From: Apostichopus japonicus
Taxonomy: Eukaryota
Direction: 5' to 3'
DNA length: 64,000 nt
NCBI RefSeq assembly: GCF_037975245.1
Contig: NC_092565.1
Location: 23,210,063-23,274,062, forward strand
Shown one piece after another: positions 1-43,225 of the stretch. Below the pieces are notes generated by a model. That model had not been told where the DNA came from and ran no database searches. It was given only the letters and a program-made list of their open reading frames with translations. Both the position numbers and the translations under genes were made by a program. Position 1 is the first letter of the stretch; each line of letters begins with the position of its first letter.

Positions 1-1168
1 ATATAAAATATAACAGAATATAAATCCCTCATATAACAGGTGAAAATATTCTACTGAACCCGTTCCATACCAAGCAGTTTTGAGGCTGCGAAACAAAGGA
101 TCGACCAGAAATATAGAAATAGCATAGTCTGAAGCAGTATCTATACCCTGTGGCAGCTATGATGATTTTCACACACATGATTCAGTGCATGGTACATTCA
201 ATTGTTGGTCAGAATCGGGACATACATACAGTCAAATGTGGTGCAAACTGTAGATTTGCATTGTTTCACACAGATGATTTGAGGATGGATACTTTTGTGG
301 GGCTATGATAAATATCACAAACACAATTCAATAGTACACCTTTCTTTAAGATAGTATACAAATTATACATGGTTATGAGTGCAATAGTGCAAATATTTCA
401 TGAGTTAAAAGATGGAATGTTCCATTCAACGAGGCGCAGCTGAGTTGAATGGAACAAATTACATTTTTCAACGAATGTAATATATGTACTATTGCACAAA
501 TGGAAACCATTCATTATTTGTTTCATACAACACCTTCAAATTTGGATATAATTGGATGTAAAATGCACTCATGCAACAGATTTTTTTGAACAGACAGGTT
601 TCTATGCTCTCTTACCATTGAAAAAAAGTGCTATCAAAAAAGTATAGCACAAGGTTCTATTTCATAGAGTGCAATAGAGCGGATTTTGCATGCAATCGAT
701 GAGCAATTGACCAATCAAATGGCCGGAATATAATTAGGTGTTGTATAATATCTAAACACCTTCAGTCGTGGTAGCTGCATGTTAAAATTATTACACTTTT
801 ATGACAGTATTGGTCAGTCAAGACATTTAGGGCAGAGGTGCCATTCAGAAGCTGTGTATCCCACTTTGTCATCACAAGGTTCCTAGATCAAGCTACTGTC
901 AGACTATACAGTAGGTTAATCCTCTTCAGCCATTGATGAGCATATATGGCCTAATACGGGGGAAATGTTCCATCAGATAAGGAAGGCAATTGGTGGTCCC
1001 CTGAACCGAGTGGTGATTATATTGATAATACACTCCTGTATGGATGCCAATTGTGTGGAAATTCTTGATCATTTTAATAACACACCCCAATATAGACAGG
1101 TCCTAAATCTCTAAGCATTATATTTATTTCAATCAAGATCAATAATTTACTGATTGTACTTTTTGCAG

Positions 1169-1219
1169 ACAACTAATGAAGAGCATGATGAAGTACCTCA
1201 GGAGGAAATGAATACTATG
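1169..1219 (+). CDS. 51-nt cassette exon copy 1 (TTNEEHDEVPQEEMNTM), embedded in the tandem repeat unit
   Basis: tttttgcag|ACAACTAATGAAGAGCATGATGAAGTACCTCAGGAGGAAATGAATACTATG|gtatgtacc. Only one frame is open. The length is 51 nt (phase 0 at both ends), with a canonical polypyrimidine/AG acceptor and GTATGT donor. Confidence 0.45.
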
Positions 1220-2105
1220 GTATGTACCATAATATTTTGGTAAATTAATTTAAGACAATAATTATAGGTATGGGTATTAAACTATACAAGCTAGAATACA
1301 CAATAGATGTAATCTATATACCCTAAGAATATAAAATATAACAGAATATAAATCCCTCATATAACAGGTGAAAATATTCTACTGAACCCGTCCCATACCA
1401 AGCAGTTTTGAGGCTGCGAAACAAAGGATCGACCAGAAATATAGAAATAGCATAGTCTGAAGCAGTATCTATACGCTGTGTCAGCTATGATGATTTTCAC
1501 ACACATGATTCAGTGCATGGTGCATTCAATTGTTGGTCAGAATCGGGACATACATACAGTCAAATGTGGTGCAAACTGTAGATTTGCATTGTTTCACACA
1601 GATGATTTGAGGATGGATACTTTTGTGGGGCTATGATAAATTTCACAAACATGATTCAATAAGCCCTAGTACATCTTTTAATTAAATTGTATCTAAACAA
1701 CGTCAGTTGTGGTAGCTGCATGTTAACTATATTACGCTATCGTGTATTGGTCAGTCAAGACATTTAGGGCAGAGGTGCCATTCAGAAGCTGTGTATCCCA
1801 CTTTGTCATCACAAGGTTCCTAGATCAAGCTACTGTCAGACTATACAGTAGGTTAATCCTCTTCAGCCATTGATGAGCATATATGGCCTAATACGGGGGA
1901 AATGTTCCATCAGATAAGGAAGGCAATTGGTGGTCCCCGGAACCGAGTGGTAATAATATTGATAATACACTCCTGTATGGATGCCATTTGTGTGGACATT
2001 CTTGATCATTTTAATAACACACCCCAATATAGACAGGTCCTAAATCTCTAAGCATTATATTTATTTCAATCAAGATCAATAATTTACTGATTGTACTTTT
2101 TGCAG

Positions 2106-2156
2106 ACAACTAATGAAGAGCATGATGAAGTACCTCAGGAGGAAATGAATACTATG
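2106..2156 (+). CDS. 51-nt cassette exon copy 2
   Basis: Identical exon and splice context in the next repeat unit. Confidence 0.45.
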
Positions 2157-4033
2157 GTATGTACCATAATATTTTGGTAAATTAATTTAAGACAATAATT
2201 ATAGGTATGGGTATTAAACTATACAAGCTAGAATACACAATAGATGTAATCTATATACCCTAAGAATATAAAATATAACAGAATATGCATATTGAATCCC
2301 TCATATAACAGGTGAAAATATTCTACTGAACCCGTTCCATACCAAGCAGTTTTGAGGCTGCGAAACAAAGGATCGACCAGAAATATAGAAATAGCATAGT
2401 CTGAAGCAGTATCTATATGGGTCTGTTCACGTTAAAGCGCCCAAATTAGCATAAATGGCATTTGGAGCATTGTGACAAAATAATTAGAGATTCTAGAGAT
2501 ACAAATATTATCCCCATGGAGAGAGTCCACCTAGCTGTACCTACCATAGCATAGACAATTTCCTGAGATATGCATATAGGTATGCTATACTCCCAGAAGT
2601 GCCGAAATGTGGACGGAAAATGTTGCCGTTTTCAAACTGCACAATTTGTACTTTGATCTATTCTCAACTCCAAAAGAGGATTACTCCAAATTTTGTCATG
2701 ATTGAACTTTGTGGCTATAGGTTCCCTCTCATAAATATTTCAGAAAATTTCATCGATGAATTTGCGAATTATTGCGAAACTGGACCAGTGTTTCGGACAT
2801 CACTTTTTCCGTCCACATTTATACACCAATTTATGAGTGGCATAGTTTGGGGTTAAATAACAAATGTTGAAAGTGGTGTGCCTTTTCAATACTGTCATAG
2901 TTGTATCAAATAAAATATATATCAGATGCATGTCCATTCAGCCACATTTTACTACACAATGAAGTTAAACAACATGCAAAATGTTTCCGTCCACATTTTG
3001 GTGATGTCCGAAACGTCATGAAGCAACTAATATATGAAGTATGCTAAAACCCACAAGACTGTTTTGTTACTCTAATTAAAGCATAAGTACTCCCTCAACT
3101 ACAGTATGTACATGACACATTTCCACTCATCCGTTTTGATTTTATAACCATTTCAAATTTTCCGTCCATGTGTGTGATGTCCGAAACACCAGTGATGTCC
3201 GAAACAAGTTTTAATTAATATTGCTTTATGTTGCTTGAAAAAAAGACACAATAGATGAACACTTCATATATTATGACAAGTTCTATTGTTACAAACATAC
3301 ATACTGCACTACTCAAAACTTCATCCATCTTTACCAAATATTATAGCAAAATAACCTTAAAAGTATGTTTCGGACATCACCATGTGTTTCGGACATCACT
3401 TTTGTGAATCCAACATATTGTAAAACAGCACTAGTTTCAACTGAATGATTCAATTGGTTGATTTCAGTGTGCTAGAATACACTAAGATCCTACAACAGAA
3501 TGCTTCTTAACTTTTGGTGTCATTTGACCAACATGTATTCATCTTTTGATGACTTGTGACAAGTCTAAAATGATATTCTACATATTTGGGTATGAATGTT
3601 ACTGGGAACAACAAGTTACTTGGATTTTTCTAGAACTGACATCATTAACACTACAATTTTCCATCATTTAGTACTGAAGAAGTAAAAAAAACATTTAGTG
3701 AAATTTTTTCTGACATAACATGTATCAGGAACACCATCACAGTATACAGTACATTAGAAAGTAATGCTGTACAGTAATTGTCTGCTATAGCTTAAATCAA
3801 GCTATTTGTCACAACCATAGAAAGCCTTTTTATAGGCTAGAAGAACTACATCAAAGGGCACGTGGGTACCATGCATGGACTGTCATGTGATGTGTTTGAG
3901 CTTCCATGGCGGTACCAATTTGATATTTCCCAATATCATATTGATAATTGTAAAGTTAATTACACACAATTGGAATAGGCCTAGATGAGTTTTGTAGCAC
4001 AGTAGCTCATGTTTCTATCACATCGGTCTACAG

Positions 4034-4451
4034 CAGGGTTGTCCAACCTTTTGCAGAGGAGGGCCACATGGAATGATTATGATGAAGTAGGGGGCCGTAT
4101 GAACCCTTCGCTCGATTTTTTCGACTTTTTGCGCGAAGCCTAAGGCAACAAAATGTGAGCACTGCGCGTGGAGCGCACTAACTTATTTTCCTTCCTGATA
4201 AAACAGTCCAGCCGGCCCCCCTCCCCTCCCCTCCCCTCCGCTGAGAGAGTGTCATACAAACTGACCTGTATGAAGTTTTTTTTTTGGACCCAGAAGGTTC
4301 GAATGATTGATTATATAGCTTCAAATTGTTATCAATAAATCTGCTCACTAAATTTCACACCGTAGAGCCTCTCTGGCGGGCCGGACGCAACCCTGCGGCG
4401 GGCCGGACTGTGGCCAGCGGGCCGTAGGTTGGACAACCCTGGTCTACAGCA
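4034..4451. mobile_element. hAT-like MITE (418 bp) nested in the TIR element
   Basis: Perfect 15-bp TIR CAGGGTTGTCCAACC (4034-4048) and its reverse complement (4437-4451). Perfect 8-bp direct target-site duplication GTCTACAG at 4026-4033 and 4452-4459. An 8-bp TSD with a CAGGG terminus is the hAT signature. Confidence 0.75.
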
Positions 4452-5886
4452 TAGTATGTCAACGTCACTTTGAAAAACTGAACACCGTTCAGTGTCGTCT
4501 GTCGCTCTAATTGATATGGACTCAGTGTGCATCTATAACACCCTATGTCAGAGCAGTTTAACTGTTGATGGGAACTTGATGGTTGTCAAGAAAAGCTACC
4601 AGTATTTTGGGAAGATGTTAGCTAAGTAGTAGGACTGTGGAACGTGTCTGGTGATCTAACCTATAAATGTTGGTCAACGACTATAACTATAATGTTAAGG
4701 TACAGACATTGCTAGGTAACTGTGTGTTGTCTGCTGCTCTAAGCCCAGATATACATTTACTGTATTAGTTAGTAAATCACAATGGGCAATGTGAAGATTA
4801 ATGCAGTATATCAGATTATTAGTACCACCCTGGAACACATTACAGCACATGACCCTCTGACTGGTACACGGATTTACTGTGTGGTGAAACCTCCAGGTTT
4901 ACTCGATGGTGTCAACAGTAGTAATATACACAGAGTGGTGCATCATGCATGCATGACCATGTTTTCATTCCGAGTTCCTTCACTGAGACTTCAGATCTTT
5001 AGTGATATGTACAGTATACAGATATTTATCATGATGAAACTTAAGGATAAAGCTGAACAATTTGCTGAGCTGCTGTATACCATAACATCTAAGCCCTATA
5101 CTTAAATGTAAGTTTAGGCCATAAGCTTAAATAATAACAATCTTACAAAGTAAATCATTTAATTCATATGTGACAAGGAGTATTTGTACAAACCATGAAT
5201 ACTTGTTTTTCACATCATAATTGCCAAGGCATAATGATGAATCTCAATAAAGAAGGATATTTAAACTAGTACTTATAGTAGTTACTCGTATTGGCTACTA
5301 CTGTTGCTTAGCTGGGCCAGTGGAAGCAATCTTCAACATCGGCAGATCCAGCTCAAAGGTGCATGGGGAGGGGGTGGGAGCGGGTGGGTACCATTTGAAG
5401 GGGTGCAAAATAGTTATTGCTGACATTACAAAATAGGACCAAGCATTCTAATGGAGTTTAGGTTATGATACCTCCCTTCTGAAAATTGTTTAAATAGTAG
5501 ACTCAATGATACTAGCTACAACAGGTGGGTGCCAAATTAGCTATGTAGGGATGTCTCCTGTGTACATCTGTATATTTATTAAATGGTAAATATTTGCTGT
5601 TTGTTTCAATTATTGCAGACTTCATCTAGGTAATGATGGAAATGTGGAAACCGTAAAAGATAAAAAGAATTCTATAACCCTTTTGGGGAAAAATTTCTTT
5701 GCAGTCAATAATAATACCATTTTCTGCAAAATAATGTATAAGTTGATGTCTGGGAAGTGTTGGTGAACGCTTGCCAATGCAAATGGTATGCTGGACAGGT
5801 ACAGTAACGAATGTGGTGAAGCAGAGATTAACTTTATGCCAATGGTGATCAATGAATGGTCACTATGTGGAGTGTTATGGAGTGTT

Positions 5887-6081
5887 TGCGCAGTGGTTAA
5901 CGCAGTGGTTAACGGTGCCTTTCAATCATAAGGTCCCGAGTTTGTGTCACTCCAAGATTAATGTATGTCGTCCAGTTACAGAGTTGTTGACAATTGACAA
6001 TTCATAATCATGGTCGCTAAAAATGAATCTAAGAGACTGACTTCGATCAGCTTGCGGCTTTGCGGCTTTGCGGCTTTGATC
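5887..6081 (+). mobile_element. tRNA-derived SINE copy (5'-truncated). A 3' fragment at 6082-6150 lies between this copy and the next.
   Basis: Shares its body with the full copy at 21574-21761 (minus strand): ...cagtggttaacggtgcctttcaatcataaggtcccgagtttgtgtcactccaagattaatgtatgtcgtccagttacagag...gactgacttcgatcagcttgcggctttg, followed by a (cggctttg)n tail. Confidence 0.55.
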
Positions 6082-6150
6082 AGCCGCATTCATAATCATG
6101 GTCGCTAAAAATGAATCTAAGAGACTGACTTCGATCAGCTTTGCGGCTTT

Positions 6151-6325
6151 GCGCAGTGGTTAACGGTGCCTTTCAATCATAAGGTCCCGAGTTTGTGTCA
6201 CTCCAAGATTAATGTATGTCGTCCAGTTACAGAGTTGTTGACAATTGACAATTCATAATCATGGTCGCTAAAAATGAATCTAAGAGACTGACTTCGATCA
6301 GCTTGCGGCTTTGATAAGCCAATGA
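6151..6325 (+). mobile_element. tRNA-derived SINE copy (5'-truncated). Its 3' end and flank gataagccaatga are identical to those of the 21574 copy.
   Basis: Same family as the 5887 copy. Ends ...gcttgcggctttgataagccaatga. Confidence 0.55.
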
Positions 6326-8973
6326 TGGCTTTTTCGCGAGTTCCTGCTTGCAGGAAGATCTAAACTAAATGTGTGTATTCTGGATATGTATGAATTGAGT
6401 ATGTAGTAAACAGTGATAATTCATTAACATTAAATGGGGTTATCATTTACACCAAGCCTTCAGATTTTCACTTATCACCTATCTTTTCACCTATCGGCTC
6501 TGTCCAGATGTTCAATTTGAAATATGTGCCTCAGGGCATTTGTTTTCCCAAGAATTTACAGTGCCATTATTTTTCAGTACACCTTGTTGATTTCCCAATC
6601 TATGGTGTTTTAATAAACTGCATTCCCTCAAAAATTCATAATATCTAGTGTAAATCTGCTAAGTACTGTATTATCTGACTGTTGTGTCTATATTGAAGCA
6701 GACTTTTGTTGCTTGAACAGGTTTGAATAGCAAAAATATTACTTCATATTGTTGTTACCTGCTGAAATATGTATTATTGTTATGCAGCTTTGTGAACATT
6801 TTTCCAAGGTGATGTCCGAAACATTCAGTGATGTCCGAAACGCTCATAAAGTAACTTGTAATAAACACTGAGGATGTGAACTATAATAAGTTCAAAACTG
6901 TCATTATACCTTGTAGGTAGCTTGTCAACAACAAAGACCCCTTTGTTACAAATTTAACTTTTGATATGATATGCGTTGTGTAGAAAACATTACAGTGATG
7001 TCCTAATACAGTTGTGGTGATGTCCGAAACATAGTCCAAGACAGTCTTATGCAAATCTATAAAACAAGTGTTTGCATTTTTCATTATTTCAAATGAATTT
7101 GATGCTGTTTGTTATCATCACATATCGTGATGTACTGATATATATTGCTAAGTATTAACAAGCATGGCCTTCGTTTAATAATTGTCTTGTTGATCACTTG
7201 GATCACTTGTATCCCTTTTCTTTGTTTTGAACTTGGAACCTAGGAAGGGTCCATAGATCTCTTTTGGTACAGGTATCAACTTACTAAAATGCTTTTCTAT
7301 TCATTATTGCCATGAAATGAACATCATTTGGTTTATTACTAAATATTAGGTTTAATATATTAGGTAAACCATTGGTGGGTGATGTCCGAAACAAGATCAT
7401 TTTGGAGGGGTGATGTCTGAAACAAGAGTCAAGAAAAAAAAAATTCTGAGAGGACATGACCCAGAATTTTCAGCTTTTGGTTACTATATGTGCTTATGTT
7501 GTGGTTTAATTTTATGGTGTAATTGTTACTATTAATTTCAATTTTGTTCTTTAAAGAAAAACTTTTTTAACATTATTTCAGGAAAAATTGAATATTTTCT
7601 AACGATACTCGAATATTTTTTAAGAAACATCATCGATATCATTGAAAACTTGTCTTACAATAGCAAATTTTGTGTTAATAAAGAAAATAAAAACAGAATT
7701 CCCAAATGTAGCAGCAATGGAATGACACACCACCATTACAAAAAGAACAAATTTTGGAAAATTTATAGATTGTCACACTTACAACCATCTTGAATATAAT
7801 TTCCAGAATAGTTTAAGCTCTGTTCAATTCTGATTCATAAAGTGCAGATATTAGTTATGTTATTTACTTAGAATAGAAGTTCTTTACTGTAATTTGAAAA
7901 TTTGGTACCTCAGGCAACCAAATTGGGCGCTTTAACGTGAACAGACCCATATGCTGTGTCAGCTGTGATGATTTTCACACACATGATTCAGTGCATGGTA
8001 CATTCAATTGTTGGTCAGAATCGGGACATACATACAGTCAAATGTGGTGCAAACTGTAGATCTGCATTGTTTCACACAGATGATTTGAGGATGGATACTT
8101 TTGTGGGGCTATGATAAATATCACAAACACAATTCAATAGTACACCTTTCTTTAAGATAGTATACAAATTATAGATGGTTATGAGTGCAATAGTGCAAAT
8201 ATTTCATGAGTTAAAAGATGGAAAGTTCCATTCAACGAGGCGCAGCTGAGTTGAATGGAACAAATTACATTTTTCAACGAATGTAATATTTGTACTATTG
8301 CACAAATGGAAACCATTCATTATTTGTTTCATACAACACCTTCAAATTTGGATATAATTGGATGTAAAATGCACTCATGCAACAGATTTTTTTGAACAGA
8401 CAGGTTTCTATGCTCTCTTACCATTGAAAAAAGTGCTATCAAAAAAGTATAGCACATGGTTCTATTTCATAGAGTGCAATAGAGCGGATTTTGCATGCAA
8501 TCGACGAGCAATGGACCAATCAAATGGCCGGAATATAATTAGGTGTTGTATAATATCTAAACACCTTCAGTCGTGGTAGCTGTATGTTAACATTATTACA
8601 CTTTTATGACAGTATTGGTCAGTCAAGACATTTAGGGCAGAGGTGCCATTCAGAAGCTGTGTATCCCACTTTGTCATCACAAGGTTCCTAGATCAAGCTA
8701 CTGTCAGACTATACAGTAGGTTAATCCTCTTCAGCTATTGATTAGCATATATGGCCTAATACGGGGGAAATGTTCCATCAGATAAGGAAGGCAATTGGTG
8801 GTCCCCTGAACCGAGTGGTGATTATATTGATAATACACTCCTGTATGGATGCCAATTGTGTGGAAATTCTTGATCATTTTAATAACACACCCCAATATAG
8901 ACAGGTCCTAAATCTCTAAGCATTATATTTATTTCAATCAAGATCAATAATTTACTGATTGTACTTTTTGCAG

Positions 8974-9024
8974 ACAACTAATGAAGAGCATGATGAAGTA
9001 CCTCAGGAGGAAATGAATACTATG
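8974..9024 (+). CDS. 51-nt cassette exon copy 3
   Basis: Identical exon and splice context. Confidence 0.45.
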
Positions 9025-10300
9025 GTATGTACCATAATATTTTGGTAAATTAATTTAAGACAATAATTATAGGTATGGGTATTAAACTATACAAGCTAGA
9101 ATACACAATAGATGTAATCTATATACCCTAAGAATATAAAATATAACAGAATATAAATCCCTCATATAACAGGTGAAAATATTCTACTGAACCCGTCCCA
9201 TACCAAGCAGTTTTGAGGCTGCGAAACAAAGGATCGACCAGAAATATAGAAATAGCATAGTCTGAAGCAGTATCTATACGCTGTGTCAGCTATGATGATT
9301 TTCACACACATGATTCAGTGCATGGTACATTCAATTGTTGGTCAGAATCGGGACATACATACAGTCAAATGTGGTGCAAACTGTAGATCTGCATTGTTTC
9401 ACACAGATGATTTGAGGATGGATACTTTTGTGGGGCTATGATAAATATCACAAACACAATTCAATAGTACACCTTTCTTTAAGATAGTATACAAATTATA
9501 GATGGTTATGAGTGCAATAGTGCAAATATTTCATGAGTTAAAAGATGGAAAGTTCCATTCAACGAGGCGCAGCTGAGTTGAATGGAACAAATTACATTTT
9601 TCAACGAATGTAATATTTGTACTATTGCACAAATGGAAACCATTCATTATTTGTTTCATACAACACCTTCAAATTTGGATATAATTGGATGTAAAATGCA
9701 CTCATGCAACAGATTTTTTTGAACAGACAGGTTTCTATGCTCTCTTACCATTGAAAAAAGTGCTATCAAAAAAGTATAGCACATGGTTCTATTTCATAGA
9801 GTGCAATAGAGCGGATTTTGCATGCAATCGACGAGCAATGGACCAATCAAATGGCCGGAATATAATTAGGTGTTGTATAATATCTAAACACCTTCAGTCG
9901 TGGTAGCTGTATGTTAACATTATTACACTTTTATGACAGTATTGGTCAGTCAAGACATTTAGGGCAGAGGTGCCATTCAGAAGCTGTGTATCCCACTTTG
10001 TCATCACAAGGTTCCTAGATCAAGCTACTGTCAGACTATACAGTAGGTTAATCCTCTTCAGCCATTGATGAGCATATATGGCCTAATACGGGGGAAATGT
10101 TCCATCAGATAAGGAAGGCAATTGGTGGTCCCCGGAACCGAGTGGTAATAATATTGATAATACACTCCTGTATGGATGCCAATTGTGTGGACATTCTTGA
10201 TCATTTTAATAACACACCCCAATATAGACAGGTCCTAAATCTCTAAGCATTATATTTATTTCAATCAAGATCAATAATTCACTGATTGTACTTTTTGCAG

Positions 10301-10351
10301 ACAACTAATGAAGAGCATGATGAAGTACCTCAGGAGGAAATGAATACTATG
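10301..10351 (+). CDS. 51-nt cassette exon copy 4
   Basis: Identical exon and splice context. Confidence 0.45.
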
Positions 10352-11627
10352 GTATGTACCATAATATTTTGGTAAATTAATTTAAGACAATAATTATAGG
10401 TATGGGTATTAAACTATACAAGCTAGAATACACAATAGATGTAATCTATATACCCTAAGAATATAAAATATAACAGAATATAAATCCCTCATATAACAGG
10501 TGAAAATATTCTACTGAACCCGTCCCATACCAAGCAGTTTTGAGGCTGCGAAACAAAGGATCGACCAGAAATATAGAAATAGCATAGTCTGAAGCAGTAT
10601 CTATACGCTGTGTCAGCTATGATGATTTTCACACACATGATTCAGTGCATGGTACATTCAATTGTTGGTCAGAATCGGGACATACATACAGTCAAATGTG
10701 GTGCAAACTGTAGATTTGCATTGTTTCACACAGATGATTTGAGGATGGATACTTTTGTGGGGCTATGGTAAATTTCACAAACATGATTCAATAGTACACC
10801 TTTCTTTAAGATAGTATACAAATTATAGATGGTTATGAGTGCAATAGTGCAAATATTTCATGAGTTAAAAGATGGAAAGTTCCATTCAACGAGGCGCAGC
10901 TGAGTTGAATGGAACAAATTACATTTTTCAACGAATGTAATATTTGTACTATTGCACAAATGGAAACCATTCATTATTTGTTTCATACAACACCTTCAAA
11001 TTTGGATATAATTGGATGTAAAATGCACTCATGCAACAGATTTTTTTGAACAGACAGGTTTCTATGCTCTCTTACCATTGAAAAAAGTGCTATCAAAAAA
11101 GTATAGCACATGGTTCTATTTCATAGAGTGCAATAGAGCGGATTTTGCATGCAATCGACGAGCAATGGACCAATCAAATGGCCGGAATATAATTAGGTGT
11201 TGTATAATATCTAAACACCTTCAGTCGTGGTAGCTGTATGTTAACATTATTACACTTTTATGACAGTATTGGTCAGTCAAGACATTTAGGGCAGAGGTGC
11301 CATTCAGAAGCTGTGTATCCCACTTTGTCATCACAAGGTTCCTAGATCAAGCTACTGTCAGACTATACAGTAGGTTAATCCTCTTCAGCCATTGATGAGC
11401 ATATATGGCCTAATACGGGGGAAATGTTCCATCAGATAAGGAAGGCAATTGGTGGTCCCCGGAACCGAGTGGTAATAATATTGATAATACACTCCTGTAT
11501 GGATGCCAATTGTGTGGACATTCTTGATCATTTTAATAACACACCCCAATATAGACAGGTCCTAAATCTCTAAGCATTATATTTATTTCAATCAAGATCA
11601 ATAATTCACTGATTGTACTTTTTGCAG

Positions 11628-11678
11628 ACAACTAATGAAGAGCATGATGAAGTACCTCAGGAGGAAATGAATACTATG
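11628..11678 (+). CDS. 51-nt cassette exon copy 5
   Basis: Identical exon and splice context. Confidence 0.45.
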
Positions 11679-12564
11679 GTATGTACCATAATATTTTGGT
11701 AAATTAATTTAAGACAATAATTATAGGTATGGGTATTAAACTATACAAGCTAGAATACACAATAGATGTAATCTATATACCCTAAGAATATAAAATATAA
11801 CAGAATATAAATCCCTCATATAACAGGTGAAAATATTCTACTGAACCCGTCCCATACCAAGCAGTTTTGAGGCTGCGAAACAAAGGATCGACCAGAAATA
11901 TAGAAATAGCATAGTCTGAAGCAGTATCTATACGCTGTGTCAGCTATGATGATTTTCACACACATGATTCAGTGCATGGTACATTCAATTGTTGGTCAGA
12001 ATCGGGACATACATACAGTCAAATGTGGTGCAAACTGTAGATTTGCATTGTTTCACACAGATGATTTGAGGATGGATACTTTTGTGGGGCTATGGTAAAT
12101 TTCACAAACATGATTCAATAAGCCCTAGTACATCTTTTAATTAAATTGTATCTAAACAACGTTAGTTGTGGTAGCTGCATGATAACTATATTACGCTATC
12201 GTGTATTGGTCAGTCAAGACATTTAGGGCAGAGGTGCCATTCAGAAGCTGTGTATCCCACTTTGTCATCACAGGGTTCCTAGATCAAGCTACTGTCAGAC
12301 TATACAGTAGGTTAATCCTCTTCAGCCATTGATGAGCATATATGGCCTAATACGGGGGAAATGTTCCATCAGATAAGGAAGGCAATTGGTGGTCCCCTGA
12401 ACCGAGTGGTAATAATATTGATAATACACTCCTGTATGGATGCCAATTGTGTGGAAATTCTTGATCATTTTAATAACACACCCCAATATAGACAGGTCCT
12501 AAATCTCTAAGCATTATATTTATTTCAATCAAGATCAATAATTCACTGATTGTACTTTTTGCAG

Positions 12565-12615
12565 ACAACTAATGAAGAGCATGTTGAAGTGCCTCAGGAG
12601 GAAATGAATACTATG
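12565..12615 (+). CDS. 51-nt cassette exon copy 6 (variant HVEVP: GAT>GTT, GTA>GTG)
   Basis: Same context. Point variants keep the frame open. Confidence 0.4.
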
Positions 12616-13429
12616 GTATGTACCATAATATTTTGGTAAATTAATTTAAGACAATAATTATAGGTATGGGTATTAAACTATACAAGCTAGAATACACAAT
12701 AGATGTAATCTATATACCCTAAGAATATAAAATATAACAGAATATGCATATTGAATCCCTCATATAACAGGTGAAAATATTCTACTGAACCCGTCCCATA
12801 CCAAGCAGTTTTGATGATTTTCACACACATGATTTAGTGCATGGTACATTCAATTGTTGGTCAGAATCGGGACATACATACAGTCAAATGTGGTGCAAAC
12901 TGTAGATTTGCATTGTTTCACACAGATGATTTGACCATGGATACTTTTGTGGGGCTATGGTAAATTTCACAAACATGATTCAATAAGCCCTAGTACAATT
13001 TTTTTTAAATTGTATCTAAACAACGTCAGTTGTGGTAGCTGCATGTTAACTATATTACGCTATCATGTATTGGTCAGTCAAGACATTTAGGGCAGAGGTG
13101 CCATTCAGAAGCTGTGTATCCCACTTTGTCATCACAAGGTTCCTAGATCAAACTACTGTCAGACTATACCGTAGGTTAAAATTCTCTCCAGCTATGCATT
13201 GAACATATGGCCTCATACGGGGGAAAGGCTCCATCAGATAAAGAATATTGCATTGGTGGTCCCAGGAACAGAGCGGTAATTATTGATATTGTACACACCA
13301 TGTATGGATGCCAATTGTTACATTCTTGATCATTTTAAGAACACATCCCAATAAAGACAGGTCCTAAATCTCTAAGCATTATATTTCTTTCAATCAAGAT
13401 CAATAATTCACTGATTGTACCTTTTGCAG

Positions 13430-13480
13430 ACAACTAATGAAGAGCAGGATGAAGTACCTCAGGAGGAAATGAATACTATG
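13430..13480 (+). CDS. 51-nt cassette exon copy 7 (variant CAT>CAG, H>Q)
   Basis: Same context in a more diverged unit. Confidence 0.4.
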
Positions 13481-14364
13481 GTATGTACTAAAATATTTTG
13501 GTAAATTAATTTAGACAATAATTATAGGCATTGGTATTATACTATATACAAGCTAGAATACACAATATATATACCATAAAAATATAAAATATATCAGAAT
13601 GGGCATATTGAATCCCTCATATAGAACAGGTGAAAATATTCTACTGAACCTGTTCCATACCAAGCAGTTTTGAGGCTGTGAAACAAAGGATCGACCAGAA
13701 ATATAGAAATAGCATAGTCTGAAGCAGTATCTATACGCTGTGTCAGCTATGATGATTTTCACACACATGATTCAGTGCATGGTACATTCAATTGTTGGTC
13801 AGAATCGGGACATACATACAGTCAAATGTGGTGCAAACTGTAGATTTGCATTGTTTCACACAGATGATTTGACCATGGATACTTTTGTGGGGCTGTGGTA
13901 AATTTCACAAACATGATTCAATAAGCCCTAGTACACCTTTTTTTTTAAATTGTATCTAAACAACGTTAGTTGTGGTAGCTGCATGTTAACTATATTACGC
14001 TATCGTGTATTGGTCAGTCAAGACATTTAGGGCAGAGGTGCCATTCAGAAGCTGTGTATCCCACTTTGTCATCACAAGGTTCCTAGATCAAGCTACTGTC
14101 AGACTATACAGTAGGTTAATCCTCTTCAGCCATTGATGAGCATATATGGCCTAATACGGGGGAAATGTTCCATCAGATAAGGCAATTGGTGGTCCCCGGA
14201 ACCGAGTGGTAATTATATTGATAATACACTCCTGTATGGATGCCAATTGTGTGGAAATTCTTGATCATTTTAATAACACACCCCAATATAGACAGGTCCT
14301 AAATCTCTAAGCATTATATTTATTTCAATCAAGATCAATAATTCACTGATTGTACTTTTTGCAG

Positions 14365-14415
14365 ACAACTAATGAAGAGCATGATGAAGTGCCTCAGGAG
14401 GAAATGAATACTATG
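14365..14415 (+). CDS. 51-nt cassette exon copy 8 (silent GTA>GTG)
   Basis: Same context. Confidence 0.4.
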
Positions 14416-15710
14416 GTATGTACCATAATATTTTGGTAAATTAATTTAAGACAATAATTATAGGTATGGGTATTAAACTATACAAGCTAGAATACACAAT
14501 AGATGTAATCTATATACCCTAAGAATATAAAATATAACAGAATATGCATATTGAATCCCTCATATAACAGGTGAAAATATTCTACTGAACCCGTCCCATA
14601 CCAAGCAGTTTTGATGATTTTCACACACATGATTTAGTGCATGGTGCATTCAATTGTTGGTCAGAATCGGGACATACATACAGTCAAATGTGGTGCAAAC
14701 TGTAGATTTGCATTGTTTCACACAGATGATTTGACCATGGATACTTTTGTGGGGCTATGGTAAATTTCACAAACATGATTCAATAAGCCCTAGTACACCT
14801 TTTTTTTAAATTGTATCTAAACAACGTTAGTTGTGGTAGCTGCATGTTAACTATATTACGCTATCGTGTATTGGTCAGTCAAGACATTTAGGGCAGAGGT
14901 GCCATTCAGAAGCTGTGTATCCCACTTTGTCATCACAAGGTTCTTAGATCAAGCTACTGTCAGACTATAGAGTACATGAAGGTTAAAAACCCCTTCAGCC
15001 ATTGATGAGCATATGGCCAAATACGGGAAAGCTTCCATCATGCTAAAATACACAATATATTACTATATAATCTATAACCTAAGAATATAAAATATATCAG
15101 AATGGACATAGTCAATACCTCATATAACAGGTGAAATATTGTACTGTCTACTGAACCCGTCCCATATCAAGCAATTTTTAGGCTGCAAAACAAAGAATCG
15201 GCCAGAAATATAGAAATAGCATGGTCTGAAGCAACAGCTATTATGATGATGGTCATGTCAATCATAGCATTGGAATTCCATATCGGCCTGATAAAAAAAC
15301 TGGACAACTATATTCAGTTTTGCTTACAGGTTCTGCATGAACTAGCTGTAAAGATGTTTGTATTTTGCTCTCCCATATCCATTCAATGAAATGGTTGACT
15401 CGGTACAGGAAGAGTCTCTTATGTTAGACAAATTCACTGATCTATGTTTTGCTCAGAAGCTGATCTTAGGACTGAACCTGTCTTGATGTCCTGGCCTAGT
15501 TGCGTGACCTATTCCTAGGGATTGGGGAAATGTTTTTTTTCTGACACAATATACCTTTTTCTTGTTCTTAGAAAATTCATGTTTTTCTGTTTTAACATAA
15601 CAAATTAAAAAAGTTGATTGTGAAAATAGTTTGATCTGTTATTTTGTTACATTTAAATGTCATTCTAAATATGTTTCATACTTACTTTGTTAATTTTATT
15701 CTTGTTTTAG

Positions 15711-19575: not shown

Positions 19576-21573
19576 CGAGTGGCACTGCCCGATGGTGGGA
19601 GGCCCGAGGGGTGGGACCAAGTACCAACCGGCTACCACCGCGCTACCAAAAGCTGCCTCGGCGTGTAGAGTGTCAGGTAAGTAACAGGCGACGAACGTAG
19701 TTGGTGTTTTCCACGCTGCCACCTTGAGGATGTCCTGTATCGGGATACCGGCAGAGAGAGCTGTGGAAGCCGAGGCCCCACTGATGTTGTGATCTCTTGG
19801 CCGGGTATCCCCCCATCGTGAACGGGCGGATCATCTCTACTAGCCATCGGGATAGGGTATCCTTGGCGGCTGCTGTTTAAGGTGGTCGTGGCAGGATGAA
19901 AAGGGAGGTTGTTTGTCTCAACTTCTCTGTCCTGTTTAAGTACCACTTCAGTGCCCTGACTGGGCACCATCGCTTGTCCTCAGCCACTGATGAAAGGGTT
20001 TTGATTTCCGGAAAGAAAATGTCCCCGGGCAAGAAAGTCAAGGCCCGGTTCTTGGCAATAAGGGACGGGTCTGGAACTGTCCTCGCCCCATGGCCCTCGA
20101 ATCTGATGTGGTTCTGTTTGGTTGTTAGGGCTTGGAGGTAACTCCTTCACGCTGACGCTACCGCAATGACGAAGAGTGTTTTCTTTGTAAGAGCAGCCAG
20201 GGAAACGTTCCCCGACGATTCGTACAGCGGCCCTGCCAGGGCATGCAGCACTGCTGAGAGCCCCGCAGAGGGGGCTAACTGTCTGACTCGTGGACGGCGA
20301 TGAGCCATGCCTTTGGTGAGCTGGTCAATGTCTGGGTTAATGCCCAGCGTGGAGCCGTCTGGAAAACCAGACGTCCCCGTCTGGGGCCTGTGTGTGGGAC
20401 CTGCGGCCTGGGACCCGGGGTCCGGAGGGAGCCACTAGGATGAGTTTACCCTTGGAGCTGCGAATCTTCCTCAGTATCTGGCTGATCATGCCAAAGGGGG
20501 GGGGGGAAGAATTTAAACCTCTGGTCCGTCTCAAGGCAGGGACCTGGCGCTATGTGGGAGGCTGCAGGTGGGACCGCCTGTTACAAAAGATGGGCAGCCC
20601 ATTGTTGCCCTTTGTCGTAAGCAGGTCTATCAGAGGTATGCCGAACATGTGGAAAAACCTACCGCATGTTCCTTGCGAAGGGTTTACTCGTCGGGGTCGA
20701 GTTGTCCCCTGGGCAGAGCATCGGCCCTCACACTCTCCTTTCTGGCTATATGGGAGACCCATAGGGCCGTGCCAGATTCTGCAGCTGTGGTGACGGTCTC
20801 CCATGCCAGACGGCACAATCTCTCTGCCCTGGAGTCCTGAGAGCGAGGCGGAAGTACATGAAACCTGGTTATCTTTGCAAATAGAGTGTTGGGGCCGATC
20901 CTTTGCCCTGCTGACGCCACTGTGGTGCAGGAAAGTGGTTTCTCTGTATATGCTGCTAAAGAAGTCAAGGACAGTGGCCTGTATGATAACCTTGTTAGCG
21001 CCTGCAGTACAGCAGCACTCGCAGTACTGCTTGCATTACCACAGTACCGCTGATGACCCCTTTAGTTATCAACCAGTTGCAATCAGAAAACCTCTGAAGA
21101 AAAGTAATGCCTTGATGATGTAGACCTAAGCTGTACCCTGTAGGGAGGTTTAATGGAGGTTCTTTCCATGAAAAATAATATTAATAATAATATTGAGGGT
21201 TGAACTGCGCCGGCCTATCTATCGATAACGAAGCCAGAGGCGCTAGCAATATTACCCTGGTCAACAATAACCTGTTAAACAGAGAGAAATCCCTCCTGGA
21301 TGGAAAGACGCAATGGAGATAAAGTGCCTTGCCCAAGGAAACAACAGAATGATCTGGCCAGGACTAAAACCTGCAAGCCTTAGATCACCAGTACACTGCC
21401 TACACCGCTTGACCACAGTGCTCTCCAAAAATTGAGTACTGAATGGATAGTTTGCTTCATCAGAGTCTTAATCAATGCTACAGCTGCTATGTGGCTTTTA
21501 CAACTACAGTATATGTATGTATTTGTGTATGTAATTTAGATCATCCTGCAAGTAGGAACTTGTGAAGAAGCCT

Positions 21574-21761
21574 CATTGGCTTATCAAAGCCGCAAGCTGA
21601 CCAAAGTCAGTCTCGTACATTCATATTTTAATGTCCATGACTATGAATTGTCAACAGCTCTGTAACTGGACAACATACATTAATCTTGGGGTGACTTGAA
21701 CCGGGGACCTTTTGATTGGAAGGCACCGGGTTTAACCACTGAGCTAACTAAGCTACAGCCC
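21574..21761 (-). mobile_element. Full-length tRNA-derived SINE (minus strand), nested in the DIRS-like element
   Basis: Minus-strand 5' head gggctgtagcttagttagctcagtggttaaacccggtgccttccaatcaaaaggtccccggttcaagtcacc carries A-box-like (TAGCTCAGTGG) and B-box-like (GGTTCAAGTC) sequences. Its 3' end cannot pair with its 5' end as an acceptor stem, so it is not a functional tRNA. Its body and tail match the 5887 and 6151 copies. Confidence 0.6.
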
Positions 21762-27503: not shown

Positions 27504-27551
27504 GATTCCAAAAAGGCTAAGGAAACTTAGACAATTAAGAAGCTACTCTAA
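27504..27551 (+). CDS. Candidate terminal exon of the acidic-repeat gene (IPKRLRKLRQLRKLL, stop TAA at 27549-27551)
   Basis: Strong polypyrimidine tract and AG (tttcatgtctttttacattag|) at 27483-27503. A phase-0 join from the 51-nt exons gives a short basic tail and then a stop. All three frames hit stops before 27538. Confidence 0.35.
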
Positions 27552-29742
27552 AGATGATGCTGTCGAAAGTGATTTTGTACCATTTGATGAAGAAAGCGAC
27601 ACCTCTTCAGAAGAAGATGCTAACACATCAGATGAAGGCTATGCTGCTGATGAGAATCAACCCAGTACTAGTAATAAGGTATGTGTATTATCAACAGAGT
27701 ACACTGCCCCAGAGGAAAAATCAAAAAGAGCTTGGAACAGACAACACTACTGCATCTACTGTGAGAAAACTGTTCTACAAATAGCACGACATTTCAAAAC
27801 TCATCATTTTGATGAATCATTGGTGATTAAGGCCTTAAATGAACCTAAAAAGTCAAAGGAACGAAATGCCATTTTTGAAGAATTAAGAAAAAAGGGGGAC
27901 CATGCCCACAATATAAAAGTCTTCAAAGAAGGAAAAGGTCAACTTTTGGTGTATAAAAGACCACAAATGGGGCTACTGGATGCAGAGGATTTCATTCCTT
28001 GTCCAGATTGTCACGGATATTTTGCAAAAAGATCTCTCTGGAGACACCAGAAAAATTGCACCTCAGAATCTAAAAATGAAAGTAAACAAACCTTGGGCCT
28101 TCGGAGAGCTGCCAGAGTACTGCTTCCCACAAAGGCAGACTGCAGTTCAAAACTGCAGAACATACTTGCAGGTATGAAGGCTGACAATATTGTATTAACA
28201 ATACGTGCAGATCCTTGGTTATGCAAATTGGGGGAACACTACATCAATGACAGCCCAAATGCACACTACATTGTATCAGATAGGATGAGATCTGTTGCAC
28301 GTCTTCTTCTCGAGACCCAAAAGCTAAATTGTGCCATAAAATCAGCTAAAGATTTAGTAAATCCATGCCATTTTGATAATGTAATTTCAGGTGTGAAGGG
28401 CTGCTGTGGGTTTGACGATGCATCGCAAATGTTTGCCACACCATCATTGGCTAAAAAGCTAGGTCAAAGCTTAAATGTGCTGGCAGATATAAGTATTGCA
28501 GAAGCAATAAAAGCTGCAGATGCTTCACAAGAGAACATGGCCGAGCAATTCTTAAAGCTTAAGAAATTGCAGTGGAACAAGAAAATTGCCACTAAAATCT
28601 ACAAACAGCAAAGCAAACAAAAGTGGCAAAAGCCCCCTAAAATACCACTAACAGCTGATACTGTGAAATTGTATCAACTATTATCATGTAACATAAAAGA
28701 GACAAAAGAAAGTTTGAAAACAGAGGTAACAACATCGCTATGGAGGGAGTTGGCCTCACTAACTCTTACACAACTGATAATGTTTAACAGACGTCGACCT
28801 GGGGAAACCCAGAATCTTAAACTGGAAGATTACAAACAACAAACAGGGCAAAAAAAAGACTTTCAAGATGAGATATATGATTCACTTCCAGTAGCACAAA
28901 AAATTGCCTCAAAAAGGCTAAGCCTAATAATGACAAGGGGTAAGCGAGACCGCGGTGTTCCAGTAATGCTAACCCCCAACATGAAAGATTCAATAGAAAT
29001 ACTGAACAACACTAGGGAACTTGCTGGTGTTGATCCCCAAAACCCTTACATCTTTGCATGCCCATCAGGGGAGTCTCTACAGCCTCTTCGTGGATATGAT
29101 TGCCTGCATAAATATGCACAACAGTGTGGGGCTCAAAATCCTGAACGCCTTACAGCCACAAATATGAGGAAGCATCTTGCTACATTGTCACAAATTTTGA
29201 ATCTTTCAGAATCAGAATTAGAACAACTGGCTAATCACTTGGGGCATAATATCAGTGTTCACAAAGAATACTACCGCCTTCCACAAGATGTGATATTTCT
29301 TGCGAAAGTCAGCAAACTGTTACTTACTGCTGAAAAGGGCCATATTCATAAGTATCAAGGAAAAGCTTTGGCAGATTTTGAAATAGATAATAAAGAACTC
29401 TTGTCAGATAGAGAAATGTCTGATGAGAATGAAAGTGAGATAGATGAAGTTGAAACTCAAGAAATACCTGATAGCCAGGCTCATACAACTGTCAATACAA
29501 AATACAAAAAGAGAGTAATATCCTCAAGAACAAAATGGAGTAAACATGAAGAAACGGCTGTCATGAATGACCCACAGCTTAAGAAAGCCATCAAAACCAT
29601 GCATCCTCCTGCATACAAAGCATGTCATGATGCAAGAGAAAACAATGCCTGTTTGCAAAATAGGTCAATTACACAAATCAAATCCAAAGTTTGGAACATT
29701 ATACAGAAAAAATCTAAAGCACAGTTACAAAAGGAGCATTAG
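27538..29742 (+). CDS. Crypton-like tyrosine recombinase ORF (734 codons, stop-to-stop). Domains in order: acidic N-terminal stretch, two C2H2/C2HC-like zinc fingers, YR N-terminal and catalytic domains, and a C-terminal Myb/SANT-like tail.
   Basis: Uninterrupted frame from 27538 to TAG at 29740-29742. Zinc finger 1 is HYCIYCEKTVLQIARHFKTHH; zinc finger 2 is CPDCHGYFAKRSLWRHQKNC. YR box I is LIMFNRRRPGETQNLKLEDY. A beta-hairpin Lys in IMTRGKRDRGVPV. Box II is NMRKHLATL...LANHLGHNISVHKEYYRL (His and Tyr nucleophile). C-terminal tail RTKWSKHEETAVMNDP...RSITQIKSKVWNII. The first in-frame ATG is at ~27966, after zinc finger 1, so the true 5' end is probably an upstream or spliced exon. Confidence 0.7.
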   Translation, partial: RSYSKDDAVESDFVPFDEESDTSSEEDANTSDEGYAADENQPSTSNKVCVLSTEYTAPEEKSKRAWNRQHYCIYCEKTVLQIARHFKTHHFDESLVIKALNEPKKSKERNAIFEELRKKGDHAHNIKVFKEGKGQLLVYKRPQMGLLDAEDFIPCPDCHGYFAKRSLWRHQKNCTSESKNESKQTLGLRRAARVLLPTKADCSSKLQNILAGMKADNIVLTIRADPWLCKLGEHYINDSPNAHYIVSDRMRSVARLLLETQKLNCAIKSAKDLVNPCHFDNVISGVKGCCGFDDASQMFATPSLAKKLGQSLNVLADISIAEAIKAADASQENMAEQFLKLKKLQWNKKIATKIYKQQSKQKWQKPPKIPLTADTVKLYQLLSCNIKETKESLKTEVTTSLWRELASLTLTQLIMFNRRRPGETQNLKLEDYKQQTGQKKDFQDEIYDSLPVAQKIASKRLSLIMTRGKRDRGVPVMLTPNMKDSIEILNNTRELAGVDPQNPYIFACPSGESLQPLRGYDCLHKYAQQCGAQNPERLTATNMRKHLATLSQILNLSESELEQLANHLGHNISVHKEYYRLPQDVIFLAKVSKLLLTAEKGHIHKYQGKALADFEIDNKELLSDREMSDENESEIDEVETQEIPDSQAHTTVNTKYKKRVISSRTKWSKHEETAVMNDPQLKKAIKTMHPPAYKACHDARENNACLQNRSITQIKSKVWNIIQKKSKAQLQKEH

Positions 29743-35300: not shown

Positions 35301-35539
35301 GGGTTTCAAGAAGACGTATTTTTTCACAGTTTTCAAAACAAAAACACCTATTTTCCCATAAATAGAATTCATAATGATAAATAACCTTTCCTGATAAGAA
35401 AATTACACGGTCTTGGTAGCTAACGCAAGCTGATAGTCTCTGCTACTTACCCTGAAATGGTGTTGTCGCTGAAATCCCATGTGTGGGCGTGAGGAGGGTC
35501 CAAGAGAGGTCCAAAAGCGAGATTCCTCCTTATACTCTC

Positions 35540-43215: not shown

Positions 43216-43225
43216 CACAATGAAA

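What the first reader, a model, noticed from the sequence alone, without database searches (positions are those of the whole stretch)
2418..7949. 5.5-kb non-coding TIR transposon whose interior carries at least 12 copies of GTGATGTCCGAAAC in both orientations
The terminal inverted repeats (27 bp) and TA flanks define a cut-and-paste element. Inside it, two short motifs (GTGATGTCCGAAAC and TTCCGTCCACAT) recur, often as closely spaced pairs, in direct and inverted orientation over both subterminal regions (2600-3400 and 6800-7430). Such arrays are typical transposase-binding subterminal repeats. The element is therefore a candidate for a family mobilised by an autonomous partner elsewhere, and the motif gives a handle to find it. 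It also serves as a landing pad, with a nested hAT MITE and tandem SINEs.
Basis: seen in the sequence. Interest (0 to 1): 0.55.

Follow-up and report, generated by a model that had tools for sequence, protein, structure and literature searches.

The report
Non-coding TA-inserting DNA transposon, sea cucumber
This is a real but ordinary kind of mobile DNA: a 5.5-kb protein-less cut-and-paste transposon in the sea cucumber genome, and uninterrupted sister repeats in the same window show exactly where it inserted; its one odd trait is that its repeated 14-base motifs sit in clusters about 193 bases apart.

Summary
Window 2418-7949 is bounded by perfect 27-bp inverted repeats. It contains GTGATGTCCGAAAC 10 times exactly, plus two degenerate copies, all inside the element (0.32 expected by chance). 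A second motif, TTCCGTCCACAT, occurs 3 times exactly and once degenerately, in the left arm only.

The window is Apostichopus japonicus DNA. The element lies inside a 1.33-kb-unit tandem array. Six sister units in the same window are uninterrupted at the homologous point (...GTATCTATA|CGCTGTG...). The insertion therefore adds the element plus 2 nt. That supports a TA duplication and refutes the AT/GG reading of ISL2EU elements. A 4-bp ATAT duplication cannot be excluded.

No frame has a Pfam hit, and its open reading frames match nothing among 5.8 billion proteins, so the element is non-autonomous.

The motifs have sharp edges and unrelated flanks. They form 8 clusters phased at about 193 bp in both arms, with unrelated spacers. 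This fits protein-binding sites better than decayed repeats, but binding is inferred, not shown.

No other copy and no autonomous partner could be searched for, because no sea cucumber genome DNA search was available. The superfamily (Tc1/mariner-like, from the duplication alone) therefore remains unproven. It is a new member of a known kind, of modest interest.

The parts
2418..7949 (+). Whole element (5532 bp) under the TA-duplication reading; non-coding
   Evidence: Terminal repeats. Empty sites. No ORF above 119 aa stop-to-stop. No Pfam hit in 6 frames. No protein homologues.
2416..2417 (.). Left copy of the TA target-site duplication
   Evidence: Empty paralogues read ...GCAGTATCTATA|CGCTGTG; the filled site reads ...GCAGTATCTATA|TGGG...CCCA|TATGCTGTG.
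7950..7951 (.). Right copy of the TA target-site duplication. The next base, 7952, is T where all six paralogues have C (CpG to TpG in five).
2418..2444 (+). Left terminal inverted repeat, 27 bp
7923..7949 (-). Right terminal inverted repeat, 27 bp, perfect complement of the left one
2599..2618 (.). Left cluster 1: truncated A-like GTGCCGAAA abutting motif B(-) ATGTGGACGGAA; 189 bp from the element end
2790..2818 (.). Left cluster 2: A(-), then TTT, then B(+)
2985..3014 (.). Left cluster 3: B(+), then TTTG, then A(+)
3160..3205 (.). Left cluster 4: B'(+, 2 mismatches), then A(+), then A(+); the two A sites start 18 bp apart
3367..3399 (.). Left cluster 5: A(-), then A(-), starting 19 bp apart
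6809..6841 (.). Right cluster 1: A(+), then A(+), starting 19 bp apart
6995..7030 (.). Right cluster 2: degenerate A(+, 3 mismatches), then A(+), starting 22 bp apart
7379..7423 (.). Right cluster 3: A(+), then A(+, 1 mismatch CG>TG), starting 31 bp apart
4034..4441 (.). Nested hAT-type miniature element (408 bp) with an 8-bp duplication GTCTACAG at 4026-4033 / 4442-4449
   Evidence: Sequence read; inverted repeat I8.
5885..6370 (+). Nested SINE-like dispersed repeat in 2-3 head-to-tail partial copies, including a 100% identical 162-bp duplicate (5901-6062 = 6152-6313)
   Evidence: second copy at 21529-21748, 83% identical. No tRNA called.
7950..15240 (+). Host context: a tandem array (1327-bp units and a ~900-bp variant), which also covers window 1-2417. 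It supplies six empty paralogous sites, ending at 145, 1473, 9278, 10605, 11932 and 13735.

Best explanation
This is one copy of a non-autonomous, cut-and-paste (DDE-type) DNA transposon in the Apostichopus japonicus genome. It inserted at a TA dinucleotide inside a 1.33-kb-unit tandem repeat and duplicated that TA.

Shown: precise insertion, terminal inverted repeats, lack of coding capacity, and the motif architecture.

Inferred: the 27-bp terminal repeats are the cleavage and strand-transfer ends. The 14-mer GTGATGTCCGAAAC (with the left-arm-only 12-mer TTCCGTCCACAT) is the recognition site of a sequence-specific DNA-binding domain. That domain would belong to the transposase, or to an accessory protein, encoded by an autonomous relative elsewhere.

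The sites lie mostly in pairs 17-31 bp apart. They form 5 clusters in the left arm and 3 in the right, phased at about 193 bp. Many protein units could therefore load on each subterminal kilobase and help bring the two ends together. The different make-up of the arms would tell left from right.

The duplication points to the Tc1/mariner (IS630-Tc1-mariner) superfamily, but the transposase is unseen. The site architecture resembles En/Spm, Ac or Harbinger subterminal repeats more than typical Tc1/mariner ends.
For: 1. Perfect 27-bp terminal repeats, unique in the window.
2. Six sister units of the host tandem array are uninterrupted exactly at the junction. The filled site equals the empty site plus the element plus 2 nt.
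3. Only 1 of at least 9 units carries the element, and the neighbouring units are 99.3-99.6% identical. The terminal repeats differ at 0 of 27 positions, and 11 of 12 A sites keep their CpG. Together these indicate a young insertion.
4. No Pfam domain in any frame at E<=1. No homologue of any element ORF in 5.8e9 proteins.
5. The 14-mer is enriched about 30-fold and confined to the element. Information content drops to about 0 immediately outside the 14-15 bp core.
6. Spacers between clusters show no similarity to each other, and Tandem Repeats Finder finds no array. Yet cluster centres are phased at 193 bp in the left arm (R=0.992) and 192 bp in the right arm (R=0.997). None of 5000 random layouts did as well. 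Uniform placement of the left arm alone has P~1e-4.
7. Literature: Tc1/mariner elements integrate at TA and duplicate it, and Sleeping Beauty carries several transposase sites per end plus a left-only half site (PMC7827188). The Harbinger3_DR Myb-like protein binds a 9-bp subterminal motif (PMC9710019).
Against: 1. No second copy and no autonomous relative was found, because no A. japonicus genome DNA search was available. Family status and trans-mobilisation therefore rest on inference.
2. A 4-bp ATAT duplication with GGG...CCC ends gives the same empty-site length and is not excluded.
3. The base after the right TA is T, where all six paralogues have C, so every model needs one C>T change.
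4. The 14-mer is absent from the terminal repeat itself, unlike Tc1/mariner IR/DR ends.
5. A 5.5-kb element with kilobase-long site arrays is atypical for Tc1/mariner.
6. Protein binding to the motifs is untested.
Confidence: 0.65

Rival explanations
1. The element is GGGTCTG...CAGACCC (2419-7948) with a 4-bp palindromic ATAT duplication. It would then belong to a superfamily that makes 4-bp duplications (from general knowledge: Sola, Ginger, Chapaev, Academ and similar), not to Tc1/mariner.
For: The inverted repeat extends exactly 4 nt beyond GGG (ATAT on both sides) and then stops. The predicted empty-site length is identical to that of the TA model.
Against: All six paralogues read ATAC, not ATAT, at the target. 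The C>T change would therefore have to precede insertion. TA-duplicating families are far commoner in animals. No 4-bp family known to me has these ends, though I did not check this against a repeat library.
Confidence: 0.12
2. It is a real TA-inserting transposon, but the 14-mer and 12-mer clusters are not transposition sites. They would be host transcription-factor, insulator or chromatin-organising sites carried by the element, or the only surviving parts of an ancient ~193-bp tandem repeat.
For: The ~193-bp phasing is close to a nucleosome repeat length. The motif is absent from the terminal repeat. The right arm has all sites in one orientation while the left arm is mixed.
Against: The sites are confined to the two subterminal kilobases and are absent from the 3.4-kb interior and the other 58 kb of the window. 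Spacers show no residual similarity and Tandem Repeats Finder finds nothing. A decayed repeat would not keep 10 of 12 motifs perfect while losing everything else, and would blur its period through indels.
Confidence: 0.18
3. It is an ISL2EU (PIF/Harbinger-ISL2EU-Spy superfamily) non-autonomous element, with an AT duplication and GG...CC ends.
For: Read from this copy alone, the flanks are AT|GGG...CCC|AT. The length without nested repeats (~4.7 kb) is close to the ISL2EU mean of 4.84 kb. ISL2EU transposases carry a THAP DNA-binding domain (PMC4482050).
Against: This model predicts an empty site GTATCTATATATGCTG, 2 nt longer than the six observed empty sites GTATCTATACGCTG. The preferred A|AT|T context is also not met (T-AT...AT-A). 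That survey found no ISL2EU in the sea urchin.
Confidence: 0.02
4. It is a decayed autonomous copy whose transposase gene is too degraded, or too novel, to recognise.
For: The length of ~4.7 kb without nested repeats is in the range of autonomous DNA transposons.
Against: Perfect terminal repeats and 10 of 12 perfect motifs indicate very little decay. Yet no frame has any Pfam hit at E<=1, the longest stop-to-stop frame is 119 aa, and the concatenated ORF peptides find nothing in 5.8e9 proteins.
Confidence: 0.03

Closest known systems
Non-autonomous Tc1/mariner (IS630-Tc1-mariner) elements, especially the IR/DR group (Sleeping Beauty, Tc3)
   Same: TA target duplication. Short terminal inverted repeats. 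Several protein-binding sites per end set well apart: Sleeping Beauty's two sites lie within ~220-bp terminal repeats (PMC7827188), and from memory the Tc3 inner site is ~180 bp in. Left/right asymmetry, since Sleeping Beauty has a left-only half site.
   Different: Here the repeated motif is not part of the terminal repeat. The arms are not inverted copies of each other beyond 27-30 bp. There are 5 and 3 clusters spread over ~1 kb per end rather than 2 sites within ~220 bp. The element is 5.5 kb. No transposase has been seen.
Subterminal repeat regions of En/Spm (CACTA; TNPA 12-bp motifs) and Ac/Ds (AAACGG hexamers), and their non-autonomous derivatives dSpm and Ds
   Same: A short motif repeated many times in both orientations in the subterminal regions. 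The motif is distinct from the terminal repeat. The two ends are unequal. A non-coding derivative depends on a partner. (From general knowledge of these systems.)
   Different: No CACTA or hAT-type termini, and no 3-bp or 8-bp duplication. The arrays here are longer (~0.8-1 kb) and regularly phased at ~193 bp.
Harbinger3_DR and other PIF/Harbinger elements
   Same: A separate DNA-binding protein (Myb-like) recognises a short subterminal motif (9 bp) and recruits the transposase (PMC9710019). The terminal repeat starts with GG/GGG if the first T is set aside.
   Different: The 3-bp TWA duplication is not met; a 2-nt duplication is shown by the empty sites.
ISL2EU
   Same: Superficially AT + GG...CC ends and a similar length (PMC4482050).
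   Different: The empty sites are 2 nt too short for an AT duplication with GGG...CCC ends.

Membership tests
Tc1/mariner (IS630-Tc1-mariner) superfamily | Integration at TA with a TA target-site duplication | tested here: met
   Six paralogous empty sites read ...CTATA|CGCTG against filled ...CTATA|element|TATGCTG. Caveat: a 4-bp ATAT duplication gives the same length.
Tc1/mariner (IS630-Tc1-mariner) superfamily | Terminal inverted repeats bounding the element | tested here: met
   27/27 bp perfect.
Tc1/mariner (IS630-Tc1-mariner) superfamily | An autonomous relative encodes a DD(E/D) transposase of this superfamily | not testable with these tools
   This copy is non-coding. No A. japonicus genome DNA search was available. 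Scans of metagenome, viral and prokaryotic collections found nothing.
Tc1/mariner IR/DR subgroup | Long (~200-250 bp) inverted repeats carrying the same binding site at the outer end and inside | tested here: not met
   The inverted repeat is only 27-33 bp. The 14-mer is absent from the terminal repeat. The arms show no inverted similarity.
ISL2EU (PHIS superfamily) | AT duplication with GG...CC termini, target A|AT|T (PMC4482050) | tested here: not met
   The predicted empty site is 2 nt longer than the six observed. The flanking A/T context is also not met.
PIF/Harbinger | 3-bp TWA duplication | tested here: not met
   The flanks allow only ATA/TAT, and only with asymmetric ends. No TAA/TTA is present.
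hAT | 8-bp duplication and YARNG termini | tested here: not met
   The outer element has TATCTATA against TATGCTGT and starts TGGG. The nested 408-bp element at 4034-4441 does meet both features.
CACTA / En-Spm | CACTA termini and a 3-bp duplication | tested here: not met
   The termini are TGGGT...ACCCA. Only the subterminal-repeat architecture resembles this family.
piggyBac / Kolobok | TTAA target duplication | tested here: not met
   The flanks are CTATA| and |TATGC.
Miniature inverted-repeat element (MITE) | Shorter than ~800 bp and high copy number (PMC5199201) | tested here: not met
   The element is 5532 bp, or about 4.7 kb without the nested repeats. Copy number is unknown.
Transposable-element family (multi-copy) | Other genomic copies sharing the ends | not testable with these tools
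   None in the other 58 kb of the window, nor in 48 kb of other A. japonicus DNA fetched. The genome itself could not be searched.

The most novel reading that the evidence does not exclude
The ~193-bp phase-locked clusters of paired 14-mers are a functional design. They extend about 1 kb in from each end, their spacers are unrelated, and the motif is absent from the terminal repeat. On this reading a TA-inserting element would assemble its transposition complex on a nucleosome-spaced or loop-spaced array of binding sites. It would use either a separate site-specific DNA-binding protein or an unusual transposase DNA-binding domain. That would be a Tc1/mariner-type integration chemistry combined with a CACTA- or Harbinger-like two-component end architecture, or an undescribed TA-targeting superfamily.
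Probability: 0.12. Interest if true: 0.6.

Novelty: new member of a known kind. Interest (0 to 1): 0.33.

Why it matters
It is a cleanly delimited and apparently young DNA transposon in an echinoderm of aquaculture interest. The proof of precise insertion is built in, because uninterrupted sister repeat units sit a few kilobases away.

The 27-bp end and the 14-mer are specific enough to pull out the whole family and its autonomous source from the genome. A 14-mer is expected by chance about once per 130 Mb, counting both strands.

If the ~193-bp phasing of site clusters recurs in other copies, it would be an unusual and testable constraint on how transposon ends are recognised in chromatin. 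Otherwise this is routine repeat annotation.

Tried and rejected
1. Exact-pattern scans for the terminal repeat and for paired 14-mers in metagenome contigs, viral contigs and prokaryotic genomes all returned zero. These collections do not hold the host genome.

2. A search of 5.8e9 proteins with 1089 aa of concatenated element ORF peptides, hoping to reach other copies through spurious gene calls, returned nothing.

3. I tried sampling other A. japonicus DNA through the look-up of encoding contigs. The RefSeq assembly is not indexed. The 48 kb obtained from GCA_002754855.1 and from Logan contigs contain neither the 14-mer nor the terminal repeat.

4. Full-text literature search for the motif and terminal-repeat sequences gave only chance primer matches.

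5. I took the ISL2EU hypothesis (AT duplication, GG ends, THAP transposase) seriously after reading PMC4482050. The empty sites then rejected it.

6. The idea that the clusters are a decayed ~190-bp tandem repeat was rejected. There is no spacer similarity and no Tandem Repeats Finder array.

7. tRNA or RNA-family identity for the SINE-like block was not found.

8. I looked for an autonomous partner or any transposase in the window. The 18 window ORFs scanned (most of them over 100 aa), outside the element, gave only the homeodomain hit in Pfam. No second terminal repeat was found within 3 mismatches beyond chance.

9. Yuan and Wessler 2011 (the superfamily duplication table) is not held in the library. 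Duplication lengths for the Sola, Ginger and Academ groups therefore rest on general knowledge and on PMC5199201 and PMC4482050.
Full report
WHAT IS THERE

Window 2418-7949 is bounded by a perfect 27-bp inverted repeat, TGGGTCTGTTCACGTTAAAGCGCCCAA. It matches nowhere else in the 64-kb window within 3 mismatches, and none is expected by chance. With the flanking ATA the inverted repeat runs 33 nt.

Inside the element, GTGATGTCCGAAAC ('A') occurs 10 times exactly. One further copy carries a single CG>TG change (7410) and one carries 3 changes (6995). All matches at 2 mismatches or fewer lie inside the element, against 0.32 expected.

TTCCGTCCACAT ('B') occurs 3 times exactly (0.00 expected) and once with 2 changes. 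It is found only in the left arm, always 0-4 bp from an A site, and in either orientation.

WHERE THE WINDOW COMES FROM

A homeobox exon at 45615-46277 (-) is 100% identical to the Apostichopus japonicus Nkx-3.2/Hmx-like protein. A 745-aa reading frame at 27505-29739 is 100% identical to an A. japonicus RefSeq protein. The window is sea cucumber nuclear DNA.

IS IT A TRANSPOSON, AND WHAT IS THE TARGET DUPLICATION?

From this copy alone the flank is palindromic (ATAT|GGG...CCC|ATAT). TA with TGGG...CCCA ends, AT with GGG...CCC ends, and ATAT were therefore all possible readings. The AT/GG reading is exactly the signature of ISL2EU elements (PMC4482050), so I took it seriously.

The decisive evidence came from the flanks. 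Window 1 to about 15240 is a tandem array of 1327-bp units, with a ~900-bp variant, 95-99.6% identical to one another. The element interrupts one unit.

Six sister units are uninterrupted at the homologous point. Five read GCAGTATCTATA|CGCTGTGTCAGCT and one reads GCAGTATCTATA|CCCTGTGG. The filled site reads GCAGTATCTATA|TGGGTCTG...CAGACCCA|TATGCTGTGTCAGCT.

The insertion therefore adds 5534 nt, which is the element plus 2 nt. That is what a TA duplication predicts. An AT duplication with GGG...CCC ends predicts an empty site 2 nt longer, so the ISL2EU reading is refuted.

A 4-bp ATAT duplication predicts the same length and cannot be excluded. It would, however, need the C>T change at the target to have occurred before insertion, because the paralogues read ATAC. 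The TA reading needs the same CpG>TpG change at 7952, but at any time.

Other duplication signatures are not met: 8-bp (hAT, P), 9-bp (Mutator), 5-bp (Transib), TTAA (piggyBac, Kolobok) and TWA (PIF/Harbinger).

AGE

Only one of at least nine array units carries the element, and its neighbours are 99.3-99.6% identical. The terminal repeats are 27/27 identical. Eleven of twelve A sites keep their CpG, and the one single-base variant is CG>TG. This looks like a young insertion.

CODING CAPACITY

- The longest stop-to-stop frame is 119 aa.
- All six frames, with stops masked, give no Pfam hit at E<=1.
- 1089 aa of concatenated element peptides find nothing in 5.8 billion proteins.

For so young a copy, this means the element never carried a transposase gene or lost it by deletion. 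It is non-autonomous.

ANATOMY OF THE ARRAYS

Aligning the 12 A sites shows information content of 1.2-2.5 bits across the 14 bases, a weak A preference at +15, and essentially zero in the flanks. The motif is therefore a discrete unit placed in unrelated contexts.

Sites are mostly paired, with starts 17-19, 22 or 31 bp apart.

- Left arm, five clusters centred at 2607, 2804, 3000, 3182 and 3383. The spacings are 197, 196, 182 and 201 bp. The first cluster is 189 bp from the element end.
- Right arm, three clusters centred at 6825, 7012 and 7401. The spacings are 187 and 389 bp, the latter about twice 194.

A phase scan over periods of 100-300 bp peaks at 193 bp for the left arm (R=0.992) and, independently, at 192 bp for the right arm (R=0.997). 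None of 5000 random layouts matched the combined score. For the left arm alone, uniform placement gives P~1e-4.

The spacers between clusters have no detectable similarity to each other in either orientation. Tandem Repeats Finder sees no array. The phasing is therefore not a recognisable tandem repeat.

The arms are asymmetric. Right-arm sites are all in one orientation. Left-arm sites are mixed and include motif B. Beyond the 27-bp terminal repeat the arms are not inverted copies of one another. The motif does not occur within the terminal repeat.

HOW IT MOST LIKELY WORKS

Shown: it is a precisely inserted, non-coding element bounded by terminal inverted repeats, adding 2 nt at a TA.

Inferred:
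- A transposase from an autonomous relative cuts at the terminal repeats.
- The 14-mer, with the left-only 12-mer, is the recognition site of a DNA-binding domain of that transposase or of an accessory protein.
- This protein loads in multiple copies on both subterminal regions, promotes pairing of the ends, and distinguishes left from right.

Precedents are as follows.
- The En/Spm and Ac subterminal motifs (from general knowledge).
- The Harbinger3_DR Myb-like protein, which binds a 9-bp subterminal motif (PMC9710019).
- The multiple, unequal transposase sites of Sleeping Beauty, including its left-only half site (PMC7827188).

The constant ~193-bp spacing, despite complete spacer divergence, suggests that the spacing itself is constrained. 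Nucleosome-repeat or loop geometry could explain it, but that is speculation.

COMPARISON WITH KNOWN FAMILIES

By duplication, the element files with Tc1/mariner, described as the superfamily with the shortest, TA, target duplication (PMC5199201; PMC7827188). The defining transposase is unseen.

The architecture is not the IR/DR type. The inverted repeats are short and the motif is absent from the ends. It works more like a dSpm- or Ds-type non-autonomous element. ISL2EU, PIF/Harbinger, hAT, CACTA and the TTAA families each fail a defining test.

Repbase classifies non-autonomous DNA elements by termini and duplication across several copies (PMC4455052). With one copy, the superfamily call stays provisional.

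NESTED REPEATS

The 408-bp element at 4034-4441 has CAGGG... termini and a perfect 8-bp duplication, so it is hAT-type.

The block at 5885-6370 is a dispersed repeat, with a second copy at 21529-21748. It is arranged head-to-tail and includes a 100% identical 162-bp duplicate, which suggests local duplication rather than independent insertions. By eye it has A-box-like and B-box-like sequences, but neither ARAGORN nor Rfam calls a tRNA.

Two nested repeats in the element, against none in 9.7 kb of flanking array, is not significant. Given how young the insertion is, they may have arrived with the element.

WHAT COULD NOT BE DONE

No tool searches the A. japonicus genome by DNA.
- Scans of metagenome, viral and prokaryotic collections were empty.
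- The RefSeq assembly is not indexed for locus retrieval.
- 48 kb of other A. japonicus DNA holds no copy.

Copy number, the consensus, duplications at other copies and the autonomous partner therefore remain open.

VERDICT

This is a real, well-delimited, young, non-autonomous TA-inserting DNA transposon carrying an unusually extensive and regularly phased array of putative binding sites. It is a new member of a known kind. Interest is modest, and would rise if the phasing proves to be a family-wide, functional feature.

Noticed in passing
window 1-2417 and 7950-~15240: A tandem array of 1327-bp units, plus a ~900-bp variant lacking unit positions 191-604, with units 95-99.6% identical. The transposon interrupts one unit at what I defined as the unit boundary. 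The array has a low CpG observed/expected ratio (0.34).
   Followed up: partly
window 35507-43216: A GC-rich satellite: 204-bp period (or 409-bp dimer), ~38 copies, 88% matches. It produces long spurious ORFs.
   Followed up: partly
window 27505-29739 (+): A 745-aa uninterrupted reading frame, 100% identical to part of an A. japonicus RefSeq 'uncharacterized protein' (1017-1128 aa isoforms). The 90%-identity cluster holds genes on at least three large contigs (26.8, 37.5 and 46.0 Mb). More distant paralogues carry a SET domain. There is no Pfam hit. By eye it has a zinc-finger-like CxxC...H motif and a tyrosine-recombinase-like H..H...YY tail, suggesting a Crypton-like or domesticated mobile-element gene family.
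   Followed up: partly
window 45615-46277 (-): Homeodomain exon of the A. japonicus Nkx-3.2 (NK3) gene, 100% identical to the deposited protein. The window lies in an NK homeobox region.
   Followed up: yes
window 21529-21748 (-): A second, 83%-identical copy of the SINE-like repeat nested in the transposon. It lies in a GC-rich stretch (18-24 kb, GC 0.45-0.53) with many overlapping ORFs that have no Pfam hits.
   Followed up: no
window 5901-6062 and 6152-6313: Two 162-bp segments that are 100% identical and 251 bp apart, within the SINE-like block. They are flanked by (TTGCGGCT)n. This is either a recent local duplication or an assembly artefact.
   Followed up: no
window 8164-8327 and the same position in each full array unit: Each full-length 1327-bp unit contains an inverted, 73%-identical copy of its own positions 215-378. 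Rfam gives a weak sub-threshold MIR2593-like hit at 8181-8307 (E=0.18), probably reflecting this hairpin-forming segment.
   Followed up: no
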